Virus record (IMG/VR): IMGVR_UViG_2778261087_000003 | Length of the DNA: 64,000 bases | DNA from: a virus | Lineage: Duplodnaviria; Heunggongvirae; Uroviricota; Caudoviricetes | Reading direction: 5' to 3' (one strand) | Shown: positions 15,002 through 55,071 of the stretch, piece by piece | Layout: each line of letters begins with the position of its first letter | How positions within the stretch are numbered: the stretch's first letter is position 1 | Notes under the pieces: generated by a model | Seen by the model: the letters and a program-made list of their open reading frames with translations, nothing else | The model's database searches: none | Told to the model about the DNA's origin: nothing | Translations under genes and position numbers: made by a program

Positions 15002-15849
15002 TATCCTCTCAGTTCCTGCTGTGCCAGTGGCTGAAGCGCACCCTGATAACGGGCAAGGTCAGGACGGTATGCCGCCCCCGGCGCATAAGACCAGCCGACG
15101 TCGGTGGCCACCTTCGTGGTACCGGTATTAAAAGTGGCCACGTTCCGCATTTCGCCGGTTTTCTCTGAGACCAGTTTCAGTTCCTGGCTCATGGCAGAGC
15201 CGGAGCGGATAACCTTCAGGCCACGGGCACGTACATCCGCCGCACTCAGGGCAATCACACTACAGCGGCAGCGCCAGCCGTTCGGCGGGTAAAACGCCTG
15301 CCAGAACGGGTCATCCCAGCGCAGCACCAGACCATGCAGCGCCAGATGGCTCCTGCGGGTATGGCTGTCGTTGATGCCGGTATACATCCAGTACGGCCTG
15401 TCGTCGACGTTTTCCATCTGCTCCGCCCAACGACCGGCGCTGTAGAGTACGGACATATTGGTGCGAAAGATGGTATCGAGCCGCCACGGACTGCCCTGCT
15501 GAATGGTGACCGGTTCACCCGTTACCGGGTCAGTCGTGTCACGCGGTCCCCACCATCCCCTGCGCTTCAGCGCCGGCTCCAGCTCCTGCCGGAACCAGCG
15601 ATCGGTTTTTCCTTCATCGACAGCCTGCTGCAGTGCCCCGCGAATATCTTCCAGAATATCCAGGCGGGTCACTTTAGCGACGGTAAAGGCGCGGGCATGG
15701 GCTTCCTGCCACATTTCTTCCCAGTCCCAGGTAATCTGATACCCTTTGGACTTCAGGTAACTGACTGCCCGCTTCGGGGGAAGCGTCATGCAGTACGCCA
15801 GTTCAGCCGTTGTCACGCTCATGCAGACGCCCCCAGATATTTGCCACAA
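15001..15849 (-). CDS. Minor head protein, Mu F (gp30)-like
   Basis: 282 aa; ...GWRCRCSV... Cys motif typical of F-family; follows portal. Confidence 0.75.
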   Translation of the reverse strand: MWQISGGVCMSVTTAELAYCMTLPPKRAVSYLKSKGYQITWDWEEMWQEAHARAFTVAKVTRLDILEDIRGALQQAVDEGKTDRWFRQELEPALKRRGWWGPRDTTDPVTGEPVTIQQGSPWRLDTIFRTNMSVLYSAGRWAEQMENVDDRPYWMYTGINDSHTRRSHLALHGLVLRWDDPFWQAFYPPNGWRCRCSVIALSAADVRARGLKVIRSGSAMSQELKLVSEKTGEMRNVATFNTGTTKVATDVGWSYAPGAAYRPDLARYQGALQPLAQQELRG

Positions 15850-25540: not shown

Positions 25541-25550
25541 GGAGTGATTA

Positions 25551-26468
25551 ATGGGACGCACCAAATCACCGGTTAACACTGAACTGAACGCCGAGGTACC
25601 GCTGTCGGATGATCTCAACGTCAGCCTGAATGCCATGACACAGCATCGTATGGAGATCATGCAGCAGTTCGGCGACGGCCTGCCCTATGAACGTGAACGC
25701 ATCGTTCACGAGGCTCGATTTTATATGGACCAGAGTGCGGAGGCTATGCTGGAGGCAGGTAAGCGTTTGGTTATCCTGAAAGAAAATGAACCTCATGGAG
25801 AATACGTACAAATCGTCAAAGAACAGTTGAACCTTGAACCACGCATAGCCCAAAAAATGGCCCAAGCTGCTCTGAAGTTTTTATCTCCAGAACTGACATC
25901 AAAAGCGAAAACGTTTTCGCATTTGGGAAGATCAAAACTGTACGAATTGATGTTAGAGGATGACGAAGATCTTGCTGAACTGGCCGACGGCGGCACAGTC
26001 GCCGGCCTGACGCTTGACGACGTTGATCGCATGTCAGTACGTGAATTGCGTCAGGCCCTGCGCGAAGCGCGCGAAACCAACGCAGCACAACAGCGCGTAC
26101 TCGCCGACAAAAATGAAAAAATCGACTCACTTTCCACCAGACTGGAGAAGAAATCCCGTATTCAGCCACCCGAGCCTGATGAAGAGGTGAAGAAGCTGCG
26201 GGCGGAAGTGACGGCATTAGCGGTTGAGGCGGAATCTGCCATCGCCGTCCGGCTGTCCGGTGCCTTTGAAACCCTGTGTGAATACTGCAGTAAAAACATG
26301 ATTGATACCCCCAGAAATTTCATGGCTGGTCTGGTCTGCCAGATTGAACGCAGTGTTCATGCATTGCGTGAGACGTTTGACCTTGATGCCGCACCATCGG
26401 GTAACGATGTCCCCGCCTGGCTGACCGAACCGGAGCCTGAAATCAACCGACCGGAGGGCATGCGTTAA
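25551..26468 (+). CDS. Hypothetical early protein
   Basis: 305 aa, acidic, coiled-coil rich; upstream of transposase. Confidence 0.45.
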   Translation: MGRTKSPVNTELNAEVPLSDDLNVSLNAMTQHRMEIMQQFGDGLPYERERIVHEARFYMDQSAEAMLEAGKRLVILKENEPHGEYVQIVKEQLNLEPRIAQKMAQAALKFLSPELTSKAKTFSHLGRSKLYELMLEDDEDLAELADGGTVAGLTLDDVDRMSVRELRQALREARETNAAQQRVLADKNEKIDSLSTRLEKKSRIQPPEPDEEVKKLRAEVTALAVEAESAIAVRLSGAFETLCEYCSKNMIDTPRNFMAGLVCQIERSVHALRETFDLDAAPSGNDVPAWLTEPEPEINRPEGMR

Positions 26469-51657: not shown

Positions 51658-52752
51658 TCACGAGAAACTCTTTTCTGATGTCAGCCAACAGTGCTCGTGC
51701 ATATCTCTTGGTGGTTTTTCGACAAATGCCTCTTCAGCAATATCCCGCCAGGGGATTTGTTTAGCCCATTCAGCTATAGCGTTATGGTTTGCCGAGAATA
51801 ACGGTATTGTATAGGCCTTCAGCCAGTCTAATGTGCTGGAGTTGTGTTTTTGAGCGTGATGTTTCGCATGGTGTTTGGCGATCACGATCGTAGGCACTAC
51901 CCATTTACTACCGTCAGTCATTGTGAAGTGCATATTACGGGGAACAGATGACTTTTCCATCAACTCCCGAATCCCGGGAAATTTCCCCAAGATCAATCGG
52001 CGATATTCATCGCTATTGCGCCCACCAAACTCTTTGGCTTTGAATTCAAGATATGCTTCAGAAACGAGAGGTGAATCCTCTGTGTTTAGAGTTATCGCCG
52101 TGAAAAAACCAGCAGGATTGTTTTTACTATGGGCCAACCGGTGATGCGAATCATAAAAGTACCCTTTCTCGCGTTCCGATGGTTTCGACAGCAACAGCAG
52201 GCGCGAGTCATAATTGGTTAAATTGCCTGTTATCACTGCATGAGCGCGATCGCTGATTTCCGCCGAGTTAATAACGATGAAAAGATCGTGCGGTCCAGTA
52301 AAACCAGCCAGAGATACTTCGTTATTCAGACAATAGGTTATATAGACGCATCCCCATGTTTCACTGGTATGCACCAACCCTTTGTCAGGGTGCATTCTGA
52401 AATGATTGCCAAGAAAAGGGTGTCTTTGGGTAACTCGCTCCCAATAACGGAACATATAGTCAATTATTGTTTTTCGACTATCGTTAATCGCAGGAGAAAC
52501 AACCACTGTACGGGAACACGAATACAGTATTGTTTGCAGGATGCTAATCACTGCCACAATAGAGGTTTCCCCAATACCATGTGGTGTGGTGGCAGTGACT
52601 TTGGCTCCGGTGTTCTTTATCGCGTTAATAATTTTTGCTTGATGAGGTGTTAACTCAATATCAAGCAACTCTTTCGCTGCCAGTTCCCAATTGTCTTTAT
52701 ACTGTTCTATCAGTGCTAACCAGGCAGGTTCATTCTGTATACGATTAGTCAC
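51658..52752 (-). CDS. Hypothetical protein (last gene of ssb-linked operon)
   Basis: 364 aa, no diagnostic motif recognised with confidence. Confidence 0.45.
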   Translation of the reverse strand: MTNRIQNEPAWLALIEQYKDNWELAAKELLDIELTPHQAKIINAIKNTGAKVTATTPHGIGETSIVAVISILQTILYSCSRTVVVSPAINDSRKTIIDYMFRYWERVTQRHPFLGNHFRMHPDKGLVHTSETWGCVYITYCLNNEVSLAGFTGPHDLFIVINSAEISDRAHAVITGNLTNYDSRLLLLSKPSEREKGYFYDSHHRLAHSKNNPAGFFTAITLNTEDSPLVSEAYLEFKAKEFGGRNSDEYRRLILGKFPGIRELMEKSSVPRNMHFTMTDGSKWVVPTIVIAKHHAKHHAQKHNSSTLDWLKAYTIPLFSANHNAIAEWAKQIPWRDIAEEAFVEKPPRDMHEHCWLTSEKSFS

Positions 52753-52848: not shown

Positions 52849-53532
52849 TCATCGTGCAGGCAATGTACTGATCGAGTTCTTCAGCTCGGAGATGCTTTTG
52901 CCAATCAGAAACTGTATTTGCCAGAGCAGATCGGCATCCATAATCAGAATTTCTGCCGGGCCTTCAGGGCCAGCCGGGAAGGAAACATAAGCCTGTTTGC
53001 CCAAGCCGATAACTCGACAACTTGCTTCAAGAATTGCGCGCTTGAGGTCTGACTTTGTAACGGAAACAGGTTGGTTTTCACCAGTGATTACGCCGTTGAC
53101 ATGGAAGTGAAAGGGCATGTAGCTTGAAATTCGCTCTACTTTCCATACGCCAGCAAGCGATCCTTCATGCAGCACAATGGGGGTAACCGCGAGTTTCATC
53201 TCACCATATAACTGCTGGCAGAGAGCTGGATTGCTGAATACATCCAAAGGTTCACACTCAAACAGCGGTGCAATCTGCATGAGGTCCATCATGGTCATAC
53301 CTGGGGTACGAGCAGTAATGAATCTGCGCATTCCAGTATCCATTGTGCGCCAGATAGCTACACCATGCTTTTTGCTCACTTCTTCAGTAAAGCCAAGGTG
53401 GCACATGATGGTTTTTTCGATAGCCAGATCAGAGATAGAAACCTTTTCGCCTGGCACTCCATCATTATTGATGGTCACTTCGACACTCTGGCCATTACGC
53501 AGGCGGTATTGAATTGCTTTAGTATTTTCCAC
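52849..53532 (-). CDS. Hypothetical protein
   Basis: 227 aa ORF. Confidence 0.45.
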   Translation of the reverse strand: MENTKAIQYRLRNGQSVEVTINNDGVPGEKVSISDLAIEKTIMCHLGFTEEVSKKHGVAIWRTMDTGMRRFITARTPGMTMMDLMQIAPLFECEPLDVFSNPALCQQLYGEMKLAVTPIVLHEGSLAGVWKVERISSYMPFHFHVNGVITGENQPVSVTKSDLKRAILEASCRVIGLGKQAYVSFPAGPEGPAEILIMDADLLWQIQFLIGKSISELKNSISTLPAR

Positions 53533-53538
53533 GTTAAA

Positions 53539-54336
53539 TCACTCCACTACAAACCAGTCACATGCCAGTAAGTCGCCTACAGAAGGAACCCACGGAACAA
53601 CTACACCTTGTGCATTTTTTAAGGCGAAATAAGCACCATACGGAACGAGGTCGCCGGGGAAATATCCCTTAATGGCTTCCATTCGTGCCGGGTACTGTCC
53701 TTCAGGAACCAGCCAGCAGAATTGGTTTTCGCCGTTCCACCCGCGTCGAGCAACTTTCTTGCCATCCTTCAGCCACATCAGCGCGTCAGAAAAGTCGGCT
53801 GCTTCAAGGTCGATTTCTTCTTGTAGAGTAGCGATACCGCCAGCAGAAATAGTTACGTCCCTGGCTGTAATGAATGTCACCCCATTGTGACCTTCAATGC
53901 TGAGCAATGCCCCATTTTCGAAGAAGTCGTTAGTCCGACTAAAGCCTTCTTCAAATGTTTTTTCTGGTGAATAGGACAGAGATCCGTCCTCATAAGCGAC
54001 CAGATATCCGCCAATTTCTGGTCGGTGTTTTTGCAAAAACATTTTATCAACATGGACTTTTACCCCTTCTGGCTCAACGACTTCGATGTTGCAAAGAAGG
54101 ACCACATCCATTAGGGCGATAATTTCGATATCTTTGATTTTTGAGGCACGAACTGTTTTATGGCTTTTGTATTTTGGAAGTGCCGTCAAAAGCTCTTTCG
54201 TTGTCATATTATTCATAGTCTTTCCTCTGCTTAAAACCTGGTGTATTGCGCCTTCAGGTGGGTCAGGAATGTTTTCCCACCAGCGAAAGCAATATCTCGG
54301 GGTGTTCTTTTCGTGAAAAGCGCGTGCCATTGCCAA
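53539..54336 (-). CDS. Two-domain hypothetical protein with C-terminal DUF2829-like segment (start may be internal)
   Basis: C-terminal ...FSDALMWLKDGKKVARRGWNGENQFCWLVPEG... matches the GKKvxRxGWNG hallmark I associate with DUF2829. Confidence 0.45.
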   Translation of the reverse strand: MAMARAFHEKNTPRYCFRWWENIPDPPEGAIHQVLSRGKTMNNMTTKELLTALPKYKSHKTVRASKIKDIEIIALMDVVLLCNIEVVEPEGVKVHVDKMFLQKHRPEIGGYLVAYEDGSLSYSPEKTFEEGFSRTNDFFENGALLSIEGHNGVTFITARDVTISAGGIATLQEEIDLEAADFSDALMWLKDGKKVARRGWNGENQFCWLVPEGQYPARMEAIKGYFPGDLVPYGAYFALKNAQGVVVPWVPSVGDLLACDWFVVE

Positions 54337-54413
54337 CTTTGGCGTTTTTTAGCGAGTTCGTGCTTTTGTTGGCGTCTGGACCACCGCTTTTCTTTCAATC
54401 GTTTTTTACTCAT

Positions 54414-54902
54414 TCAAAACGGAATATCGTCGTCAAAGTCCATTGGAGGTTCGTTATTGGCGTTGCTCTGAGGTTTACCGCCACCACTGTATTGCTGGTG
54501 GTTTTGAGGTTGGTTTGATTGCCCCCAGCCGTTTGAGGGCTGTGAATCGTCACGACGAGTGCCGATCATTTGCATGGTGCCGCCCTGGCTGACGATAATT
54601 TCCGTCGTGTAACGTTCTACACCGGCGTCATCTGTCCACTTACGGGTTTTAAGTTTCCCTTCGATGTAGACCTGAGAACCTTTTCGTAAATACTCACTCG
54701 CAATTTCAGCAAGTTTTCCGAACAAAACGACTTTATGCCATTCTGTTTGCTCTTTCTGTTGGCCCGTTTGCTTGTCGCGCCATGATTCATTCGTTGCGAT
54801 GCTGAGTCTTCCGACCGCGCCGCCATTTGGTATATACCTGATCTCCGGGTCTTGCCCCAGGGTACCAATCAGGATGACTTTGTTTACACCGCGTTGTGCC
54901 AC
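54414..54902 (-). CDS. ssb: Single-stranded DNA-binding protein
   Basis: [44 protein letters not shown]... OB fold, Gly/Gln-rich linker, C-terminal DFDDDIPF tip. Confidence 0.9.
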
Positions 54903-55071
54903 TTATCTTACCTAATAAAATAAATTAATTAGAGCAATAATGTATATCTTTGAAACGTAGCTAACAAGTGATTTGCATTATCCTGTGTCTTCTAAAGGGA
55001 TCGAGTCAGTCGGTATTGGCTGTGAATGGGTGTTTGTCCTGGAGCGTAAAAAATTCGCTTATGAGGTCTTT

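What the first reader, a model, noticed from the sequence alone, without database searches (positions are those of the whole stretch)
53539..54336. Possible DUF2829 (Tad2-like) domain protein in an ssb-linked operon
The C-terminal 85 residues contain WLKDGKKVARRGWNG followed by hydrophobic beta-like segments, which matches my recollection of the DUF2829 hallmark. That fold includes Tad2-type proteins that sequester Thoeris signalling nucleotides. Here it is fused to an unrelated N-terminal domain of about 140 residues and sits with two other unknown genes downstream of ssb. If correct, the phage carries a signalling-nucleotide sponge in addition to Dar antirestriction.
Basis: inference. Interest (0 to 1): 0.6.

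Follow-up and report, generated by a model that had tools for sequence, protein, structure and literature searches.

The report
Two-domain Tad2 immune-signal sponge gene
This P1-like phage-plasmid carries a real Tad2-family gene, whose relatives soak up bacterial alarm nucleotides; databases and a 2025 survey already flag it, but its extra N-terminal domain belongs to an unnamed family found fused almost only to such sponges.

Summary

The gene follows ssb, downstream of the C1 operator annotated in P1. It is an exact 684-bp cassette that laboratory P1 lacks.

It is not new. RefSeq names it "DUF2829 domain-containing protein" in 229 plasmid records, and a 2025 preprint reports Tad2 in 56% of P1-like and 93% of D6-like phage-plasmids. 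No experiment on it was found.

What I add:
- The N-terminal domain (aa 13-96) is a beta-barrel homologous to the OB-fold of phage L Dec and to the N-domain of RyR Tad.
- It belongs to a Pfam-less family of more than 5,000 clusters.
- Its only detectable fusion partners are sponge families: Tad2, Sequestin, Acb4, Acb2/Tad1 and RyR.

The ligand is unresolved. The pocket resembles the His-ADPR binder ModTad2 more than the 3'cADPR binders.

The parts
53539..54216 (-). Tad2-like gene: 225 aa plus a TGA stop. The ATG is at 54216-54214.
   Evidence: ORF and sequence. The 225-aa homologue P0001 is 98% identical and stands for 453 member sequences. RefSeq annotates 678-nt genes in plasmids.
54220..54227 (-). 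Ribosome-binding site GAGGAAAG, 3 nt upstream of the ATG. In P1 the same site (AGAGAAAAG) serves isaA.
   Evidence: Read directly from the sequence.
53929..54180 (-). N-terminal beta-barrel domain (aa 13-96). It is homologous to the OB-fold of phage L Dec and to the N-domain of RyR Tad gp68, and has no Pfam model.
53809..53928 (-). Linker (aa 97-136), with low model confidence. It has a weak resemblance to Dec's C-terminal tail-fibre-type repeat (TARDVTISAG against TARTITLTG).
   Evidence: pLDDT below 50 for residues 98-136. The BLASTP alignment to Dec extends through this stretch. It assorts independently of the flanking domains among alleles.
53542..53808 (-). Tad2 domain (aa 137-225) with pocket residues W160, N161, W209, S212 and D215.
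54414..54902 (-). ssb, the first gene of the transcription unit.
   Evidence: PF00436 E 7e-40. About 97% identical to the P1 ssb region.
54922..54938 (-). C1 repressor operator (Ossb/Op21 of P1), ATTGCTCTAATTAATTT, upstream of ssb.
   Evidence: One mismatch to the consensus, with 0.14 matches expected by chance. It sits at exactly the position of the operator annotated in P1 NC_005856 (coordinate offset).
52849..53532 (-). IsaA homologue (227 aa), with a GTG start 6 nt after the Tad2 stop. It is frameshifted at its 3' end relative to 264-aa homologues.
   Evidence: PHROG 2326.
51658..52752 (-). 364-aa ORF of unknown function with weak similarity to a terminase-ATPase. It is the last gene of the same-strand cluster.
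   Evidence: PHROG 5902 E 6e-183; PHROG 2 (large terminase) E 3.3e-7. No Pfam, NCBIfam or PDB sequence hit.

Best explanation
The gene encodes an early-expressed, two-module anti-defence protein of the Tad2 sponge family.

Shown:
- It lies in the ssb gene cluster, downstream of the operator that P1's annotation gives as the C1 operator.
- Its C-terminal 85-90 residues are a bona fide Tad2 domain with the core ligand-pocket residues intact.
- Its N-terminal 96 residues are a separate beta-barrel, homologous to the N-domain of the RyR Tad sponge and to the OB-fold of phage L Dec.
- It is a gene-sized cassette, present or absent and mosaic among P1-like phage-plasmids.

Inferred:
- After infection or induction, C1 repression is lifted and the protein is made together with SSB.
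- The Tad2 domains assemble as in the solved homologues, into a tetramer of two V-shaped dimers. They bind and sequester a TIR-made ADP-ribose-derived alarm molecule, so the Thoeris-type effector is never switched on.
- The adenine-contacting S-Q-T-D motif of the 3'cADPR binders is S-V-G-D here, close to S-V-S-D in ModTad2. ModTad2 is also the nearest solved relative. I therefore favour His-ADPR (type II Thoeris), or another non-type-I signal, over 3'cADPR. Confidence in this choice is low.
- The N-domain most likely acts as an oligomerisation or stabilising accessory module, as its homologue does in the RyR Tad crystal structure.
For: Tad2 identity:
- Pfam PF11195 at 80.3 bits against a cut-off of 25.
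- ModTad2 9eib E 6e-20, 8v3e, HgmTad2 8kbi and SPO1 Tad2 8sme by sequence.

Pocket:
- SPO1 W25, N26, W73, S76 and D79 correspond to W160, N161, W209, S212 and D215. The residue roles are from 10.1101/2023.05.01.538930 and, for HgmTad2, 10.1101/2023.11.15.567273.

Family function:
- It has been shown experimentally for several homologues.

Regulation:
- The operator is at 54922-54938.
- No minus-strand terminator-like site lies between ssb and the gene.

Accessory, arms-race character:
- The exact 684-bp cassette is absent from P1 and MH422554.
- 229 plasmid records carry it.
- The three segments assort independently among alleles.
- DefenseFinder finds Tad2 in 56% of P1-like and 93% of D6-like elements.

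N-domain:
- hhalign to RyR Tad gp68 gives probability 94.3%.
- The gp68 N-domain forms a domain-swapped dimer and is inactive alone against type I Thoeris.
Against: - No binding or infection experiment exists for this protein or any close relative. Its signature peptides are absent from the supplementary files of the 84-sponge screen that are held as text.
- Oligomeric state could not be modelled here.
- The peripheral pocket residues of SPO1 Tad2 differ (T78 to G, H71 to V, D67 to Q, T65 to N), so the ligand is a guess.
- Fusion to a bulky N-terminal module might interfere with tetramerisation through helix alpha-1, which starts right after the linker.
- Dec-type tails trimerise, which would not fit a tetramer.
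- Co-transcription with ssb is inferred from gene layout and from P1's annotation, not measured.
Confidence: 0.72

Rival explanations
1. It is a classical type I Thoeris sponge. The Tad2 domain binds 1''-3' gcADPR (3'cADPR) exactly as SPO1 Tad2 and HgmTad2 do.
For: The four residues that make most of the contacts in SPO1 Tad2 (W25, N26, W73, D79) are all conserved. Most Tad2 homologues tested so far inhibit type I Thoeris. One homologue, Tad2_71, blocks types I, II and IV together.
Against: The nearest solved relative, ModTad2, does not block type I Thoeris and binds His-ADPR and cUMP instead. The adenine-contacting Thr (SPO1 T78, HgmTad2 T92) is Gly here. The S-Q-T-D motif shared by both solved gcADPR binders is S-V-G-D here.
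Confidence: 0.3
2. It is a two-pronged inhibitor. The N-terminal Dec-like beta-barrel is itself a ligand-binding (sponge) or otherwise anti-defence domain, so the protein neutralises two signals or systems at once, like Acb4-Tad2 and Tad2-Sequestin fusions.
For: - Among 87 multi-domain representatives of the N-domain family, the only Pfam partners at E <= 1e-3 are Sequestin (15), Tad2 (12), Acb4 (4), the Acb2/Tad1 hairpin (2) and RyR (1).
- Many members are stand-alone proteins of 83-125 aa, the size typical of sponges.
- The domain order is reversed in P0091.
- Sequestin was discovered by the same fusion logic, but that search covered only Pfam families, so a Pfam-less domain would have been missed.
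- The N-domain is the most divergent segment among P1-like alleles.
Against: - The homologous N-domain of RyR Tad had no activity by itself against type I Thoeris and serves in dimerisation.
- The residues conserved across the family (GGYLV.Y.DGY.SYSP..F..GY) are also conserved in Dec, a capsid-binding protein. This suggests fold determinants rather than a nucleotide pocket.
- The top-150 list is biased towards relatives of the Tad2-fused query sequences.
Confidence: 0.2
3. It is a Dec-like virion protein. The N-domain anchors the protein to the capsid, as a decoration or packaged protein, and the Tad2 domain travels with the particle.
For: The N-domain is homologous to the capsid-binding OB-fold of phage L Dec, and the similarity runs into Dec's C-terminal tail. 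A few phage records label homologues 'capsid decoration protein'. P1 is known to package Dar anti-restriction proteins (established knowledge; ddrB lies nearby).
Against: - The gene sits in the C1-controlled ssb cluster, not among late or structural genes.
- P1 itself and about 44% of P1-like elements make virions without it.
- A stoichiometric sponge needs many copies inside the cell.
- In phage Dolphis the 'decoration' homologue lies among small hypothetical genes and a methyltransferase, not in a head module.
Confidence: 0.04
4. It is an anti-CRISPR of the AcrIIA7 type, the label DefenseFinder attaches to this family.
For: HgmTad2 was first published as AcrIIA7, and it is a sequence and fold homologue.
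Against: Li et al. could not reproduce any Cas9 inhibition by HgmTad2 or its homologues, in vitro or in vivo. E. coli and Salmonella do not carry type II-A CRISPR-Cas (general knowledge).
Confidence: 0.02

Closest known systems
ModTad2 / MoTad2 (Myroides odoratus prophage; PDB 9EIB, 8V3E)
   Different: ModTad2 is an 89-aa single-domain protein, whereas this one has a 136-aa N-terminal extension. ModTad2's ligands (His-ADPR, cUMP/cCMP) are proven; here no ligand has been tested.
SPO1 Tad2 (gp34.65; PDB 8SME/8SMF) and HgmTad2/AcrIIA7 (8KBI-8KBM)
   Same: They share the fold and the core pocket (W25, N26, W73, S76 and D79 in SPO1 numbering).
   Different: T78 is Gly, H71 is Val and D67 is Gln here. 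The 35-41-residue insertion that forms HgmTad2's cyclic-dinucleotide pocket, including K46 and S47, is absent, and R31 is Val.
RyR Tad (gp68 of Pectobacterium phage vB_PatP_CB1)
   Same: The architecture follows the same logic: a homologous N-terminal beta domain (hhalign probability 94.3%) followed by a C-terminal signal-binding sponge domain. It also lies next to replication and SSB genes.
   Different: Its sponge domain is an all-helical RyR Repeat12-like domain, not Tad2. Its N-domain is shorter, about 70 aa.
Sponge-sponge fusions Acb4-Tad2 (phage Pm86), Tad2-Sequestin and Acb4-Sequestin
   Same: A Tad2 domain is joined to a second module in one polypeptide. Other phage-plasmid-sized (~90 kb) elements carry Tad2-Sequestin forms with an 80-85% identical Tad2 domain (P0061, P0073).
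   Different: The partner here matches neither PF13876 nor PF21825, and it has no demonstrated ligand.
Phage L decoration protein Dec (PDB 6E3C)
   Same: The N-domain is homologous to Dec's OB-fold (profile E 4.2e-5 over residues 14-91). Weak similarity continues into Dec's tail.
   Different: Dec is a late, capsid-binding trimer. This gene is in an early cluster, is dispensable for virions, and is fused to a sponge.

Membership tests
Tad2 / DUF2829 (Pfam PF11195) | Profile match above Pfam's gathering score | tested here: met
   80.3 bits against a cut-off of 25, E 1.6e-22, profile positions 2-73 of 73, residues 141-224.
Tad2 / DUF2829 (Pfam PF11195) | [quoted passage not shown] | tested here: met
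Tad2 / DUF2829 (Pfam PF11195) | Core ligand-pocket residues (SPO1 W25, N26, W73, D79, plus S76) | tested here: met
   W160, N161, W209, D215 and S212 by the HMMER alignment. The roles of these residues come from the paper read.
Tad2 / DUF2829 (Pfam PF11195) | Adenine-contacting Thr and water-coordinating residues of the 3'cADPR binders (SPO1 T78, H71, D67; HgmTad2 T92) | tested here: not met
   G214, V207 and Q203. ModTad2, which is type II-specific, also lacks the Thr and His. This bears on ligand choice, not on family membership.
Tad2 / DUF2829 (Pfam PF11195) | Homotetramer with pockets at protomer interfaces | not testable with these tools
   Only single-chain AlphaFold2 is available; no multimer or ligand co-folding.
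Tad2 / DUF2829 (Pfam PF11195) | Binds and sequesters an immune signal and rescues phage from Thoeris, Pycsar or CBASS | not testable with these tools
   This needs biochemistry and infection assays. No published test of this protein was found.
HgmTad2-type dual sponge (extra cyclic-dinucleotide pocket) | An insertion of 35-41 residues between beta2 and beta5 carrying K46, S47, F70 and R31 | tested here: not met
   The alignment shows the insertion is missing and R31 is Val (definition).
Sequestin (PF21825) or Acb4 (PF13876) as second module | Pfam match in the non-Tad2 part | tested here: not met
   There was no hit for the N-terminal 97 residues even at E up to 10, or for the whole protein at E <= 0.1.
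Dec-like OB-fold domain (phage L Dec) | Sequence and fold homology to the Dec OB-fold | tested here: met
Dec-like OB-fold domain (phage L Dec) | C-terminal trimeric beta-helix tail and capsid binding; late structural gene | tested here: inconclusive
   Only a short similarity was found (TARDVTISAG against TARTITLTG), and the model is unconfident there. The gene context is early, not structural. Capsid binding cannot be tested here.
RyR Tad N-terminal domain | Homology to residues 1-70 of gp68 | tested here: met
   hhalign probability 94.3%, E 1e-7, 65 aligned columns. A RyR-fused representative also appears among strong N-domain hits.

The most novel reading that the evidence does not exclude
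The N-terminal beta-barrel may be an unrecognised immune-evasion module. It belongs to a family with no Pfam model and more than 5,000 clusters at 50% identity, and many members are stand-alone proteins of 83-125 aa. It could be a new sponge for a second signal, or an adaptor that sets the assembly or specificity of the sponge it is fused to. In that case the P1-like protein would be a two-pronged inhibitor. The family would also be the commonest overlooked partner of Tad2, Sequestin, Acb4, Acb2/Tad1 and RyR sponges.
Probability: 0.2. Interest if true: 0.7.

Novelty: new member of a known kind. Interest (0 to 1): 0.38.

Why it matters
P1-like phage-plasmids are common in pathogenic E. coli, Shigella and Salmonella, and P1 is a standard test phage for defence systems. 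Laboratory P1 lacks exactly this cassette, while more than half of its wild relatives carry it. Results obtained with P1vir on signalling defences may therefore not represent the natural group. The clean 684-bp presence/absence also gives a ready-made isogenic experiment.

The more interesting lead is the N-terminal domain. It belongs to a large unnamed family whose detectable fusion partners are all immune-signal sponges. The same kind of fusion evidence led to the discovery of Sequestin. This family was invisible to that search because it has no Pfam model.

Tried and rejected
- **TTG-extended ORF (53539-54336).** Rejected in favour of the ATG at 54216, on the ribosome-binding site, the length of the homologues and RefSeq gene calls.
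- **Second known sponge in the N-domain.** No Acb4 or Sequestin match appeared in Pfam even at E up to 10. Lockin did not appear among the fold matches, and Lockin is reported absent from sequenced phages.
- **HgmTad2-type cyclic-dinucleotide pocket.** The required insertion is absent.
- **Conserved Tad2 + IsaA gene pair.** It holds in P1 and D6. In other ~90-kb elements the gene after Tad2 is unrelated.
- **Neighbouring genes.** NCBIfam gave nothing for this gene or its neighbours. PDB sequence searches for the 227-aa and 364-aa neighbours gave nothing.
- **84-sponge screen.** A search of its supplementary tables for this protein's peptides found nothing.
- **ModTad2 His-ADPR contacts.** I could not obtain the residue list from the texts held, so the ligand call rests on motif comparison only.
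- **Promoter scan.** It found no minus-strand promoter in the region, so regulation is taken from P1's annotation.
- **'Capsid decoration' and 'head-tail adaptor' labels on N-domain homologues.** Inspection showed they are not backed by structural-gene context.

Full report
**What is there**

The window is a P1-like phage-plasmid (Punavirus type). It carries portal, pro, lyz, ssb and ddrB in P1 order, and the region around the finding is about 97% identical to P1.

The finding's coordinates (53539-54336, minus strand) describe the longest ORF, which starts at a TTG. An ATG at 54216 lies 3 nt after GAGGAAAG and gives a 225-aa protein. That length matches the closest database proteins (P0001, 98% identical, 453 member sequences). 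It also matches the 678-nt genes annotated in RefSeq plasmids.

**The Tad2 assignment**

Evidence that the C-terminal part is a Tad2 domain:
- Residues 141-224 match Pfam PF11195 'Tad2-like' at E 1.6e-22 and 80.3 bits, against a cut-off of 25, over the whole profile.
- By sequence the domain finds ModTad2 (9EIB/8V3E, E about 6e-20), HgmTad2/AcrIIA7 (8KBI), SPO1 Tad2 (8SME) and SptTad2.
- An AlphaFold2 model built on 40 homologues is confident for residues 13-96 and 141-225. It is unconfident for residues 98-136.
- All 24 Foldseek PDB hits with E <= 1e-3 are Tad2 structures.

**Ligand pocket**

I mapped the HMMER alignment onto the residues described for SPO1 Tad2.
- The core residues are conserved: W25, N26, W73, S76 and D79 correspond to W160, N161, W209, S212 and D215.
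- The peripheral residues differ: T78 is G214, H71 is V207, D67 is Q203 and T65 is N201.
- Both solved gcADPR binders have S-Q-T-D at this position, and an S90A/T92A/D93A mutant of HgmTad2 loses binding.
- ModTad2 has S-V-S-D. It does not block type I Thoeris. It binds His-ADPR and, in a second pocket, cUMP/cCMP. This protein has S-V-G-D.
- The long insertion that builds HgmTad2's cyclic-dinucleotide pocket is absent.

The fold and core pocket argue for a working sponge. The ligand cannot be read from sequence. I lean towards a non-type-I ADPR-derived signal such as His-ADPR, with low confidence. Some Tad2 proteins bind three Thoeris signals at once.

**Context and regulation**

ssb ends at 54414. 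The Tad2 gene, an IsaA homologue (52849-53532) and a 364-aa ORF (51658-52752) follow on the same strand. No minus-strand terminator-like site lies between ssb and the Tad2 gene.

The C1 operator annotated in P1 as Ossb/Op21 is present at 54922-54938 with one mismatch to the consensus. I infer early, C1-controlled expression together with ssb. This has not been measured.

**A precise cassette**

P1 and MH422554 have 6 nt where the window has 684 nt (53529-54212). The junctions are exact:
- P1 reads ...AGAAAAGACT ATGA|CAGCAC|AAAATACTAAA.
- The window reads ...GGAAAGACT ATGA|...|AAAATACTAAA.

The inserted gene therefore uses the ribosome-binding site and ATG that serve isaA in P1. The displaced isaA is restarted from a GTG preceded by GGAG inside the 3' end of the Tad2 gene.

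Phages Ro157c2YLVW and SJ46 carry the gene. D6 has a shorter Tad2 gene next to a dUTPase gene and an isaA homologue. In RCS47 the gene is split in two by an insertion.

**Already known**

RefSeq annotates the gene as 'DUF2829 domain-containing protein' in 229 PLSDB plasmids, nearly all non-mobilisable and those listed about 90-110 kb, from Escherichia, Salmonella and Shigella. UniRef names one allele 'Thoeris anti-defense Tad2 family protein'.

A 2025 preprint that screened 1,592 P1/D6-group elements with DefenseFinder reports 'Tad2 AcrIIA7 (anti-Thoeris)' in 56% of P1-like and 93% of D6-like sequences. I found no experiment on this protein.

**The N-terminal domain**

Residues 13-96 form a small beta-barrel with no Pfam model, even at E up to 10.
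- A profile of 21 homologues finds the OB-fold of the phage L decoration protein Dec in the PDB (E 4.2e-5, residues 14-91).
- A pairwise alignment continues weakly into Dec's tail-fibre-like C-terminal segment.
- The same profile aligns to the N-terminal domain of RyR Tad, gp68 of Pectobacterium phage CB1 (hhalign probability 94.3%, E 1e-7).

A 2026 preprint describes that gp68 domain as a fold of unknown function that is often a separate ORF. It was inactive alone against type I Thoeris, and it forms a domain-swapped dimer in the crystal.

An exhaustive profile search finds 5,116 cluster representatives at E <= 1e-3. Many are stand-alone proteins of 83-125 aa.

Among the 87 multi-domain representatives in the top 150, the only Pfam partners at E <= 1e-3 are:
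- Sequestin (15)
- Tad2 (12)
- Acb4 (4)
- the Acb2/Tad1 hairpin (2)
- RyR (1)

All of these are immune-signal sponge domains. One protein has the two domains in reverse order (P0091).

Sequestin was discovered by just such fusion evidence, but that search covered only Pfam families. A caveat applies: the top-150 list is enriched for relatives of my Tad2-fused query sequences.

**Mosaicism**

Among P1-like alleles the N-domain, linker and Tad2 segments assort independently. Identities to the window protein, in that order, are:
- P0004: 57%, 95% and 99%.
- P0015: 58%, 48% and 100%.
- P0003: 94%, 85% and 75%.

The junction motif EIDLEAADFSDALMWLK is nearly invariant across very different partners. 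This is the pattern expected of a locus under arms-race pressure.

**Verdict**

This is a genuine, probably functional, early-expressed Tad2-family sponge with an accessory N-terminal module. It is a new member of a known kind and is already flagged in public data. Its target signal is unresolved. The N-domain family is the part worth following up.

Noticed in passing
window 52849-53532 (-), compared with L003 4146-4940: The IsaA homologue is frameshifted near codon 214. The window reads ...GKSISELKNSISTLPAR*, whereas the 264-aa homologue reads ...GKSIIRAEELDQYIT... About 50 C-terminal residues and the overlap with the next ORF are lost. This is either a real mutation or a sequencing error.
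   Followed up: partly
window 51658-52752 (-): This 364-aa ORF matches PHROG 5902 and has weak similarity to a large-terminase ATPase. It has no Pfam, NCBIfam or PDB sequence match. Laboratory P1 has IS1 plus isaB at this position instead.
   Followed up: partly
window 54231-54413 (-): A 60-aa, very basic ORF starts immediately after the ssb stop codon (TGAATG). P1's annotation instead extends isaA across this stretch in another frame. Neither reading is verified.
   Followed up: no
phage RCS47 (FO818745) 15522-15785 and 25541-25813: The homologous gene is split. The N-domain part and the Tad2 part lie about 9.7 kb apart and are annotated 'part 1' and 'part 2' next to inverted repeats. Together with IS1 in P1, this makes the ssb-isaA region a recurrent insertion site.
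   Followed up: partly
L005 (phage D6) 2085-3817; proteins P0056; Bacillus phages JL/Shanette: A dUTPase gene sits directly upstream of the Tad2 gene in D6 and is fused to it in P0056 (241 aa). Bacillus phages JL and Shanette also have a Tad2 match next to a dUTPase gene. The link between dUTPase and Tad2 recurs and is unexplained.
   Followed up: no
alleles P0022, P0028, P0031, P0032, P0044, P0050 and others (alignment A1): One Tad2 variant circulating in P1-like elements has RREWKGEKQ in place of RRGWNGENQ. The phosphate-binding Asn of the W-N pair is Lys, and the beta2-beta3 loop is much shorter. This suggests a different ligand or a loss of the canonical pocket.
   Followed up: no
L006 3501-4076, L007 3501-4322 (about 90-kb contigs): Other elements of about 90 kb encoding NinX-family and RecA-dependent-nuclease-family proteins carry Tad2-Sequestin (191 aa) or other Tad2 fusions. 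They sit after a RecA-dependent nuclease gene and before a HigB toxin / HTH-protein gene pair, with an unrelated 226-aa gene directly downstream.
   Followed up: partly
proteins P0121-P0124, P0137, P0153, P0214: Giant proteins of 1,781-4,559 aa match the last third of the N-domain profile 11-28 times each (the GGYLV.Y.DGY hairpin). These are probably unrelated repeat proteins, not family members.
   Followed up: no
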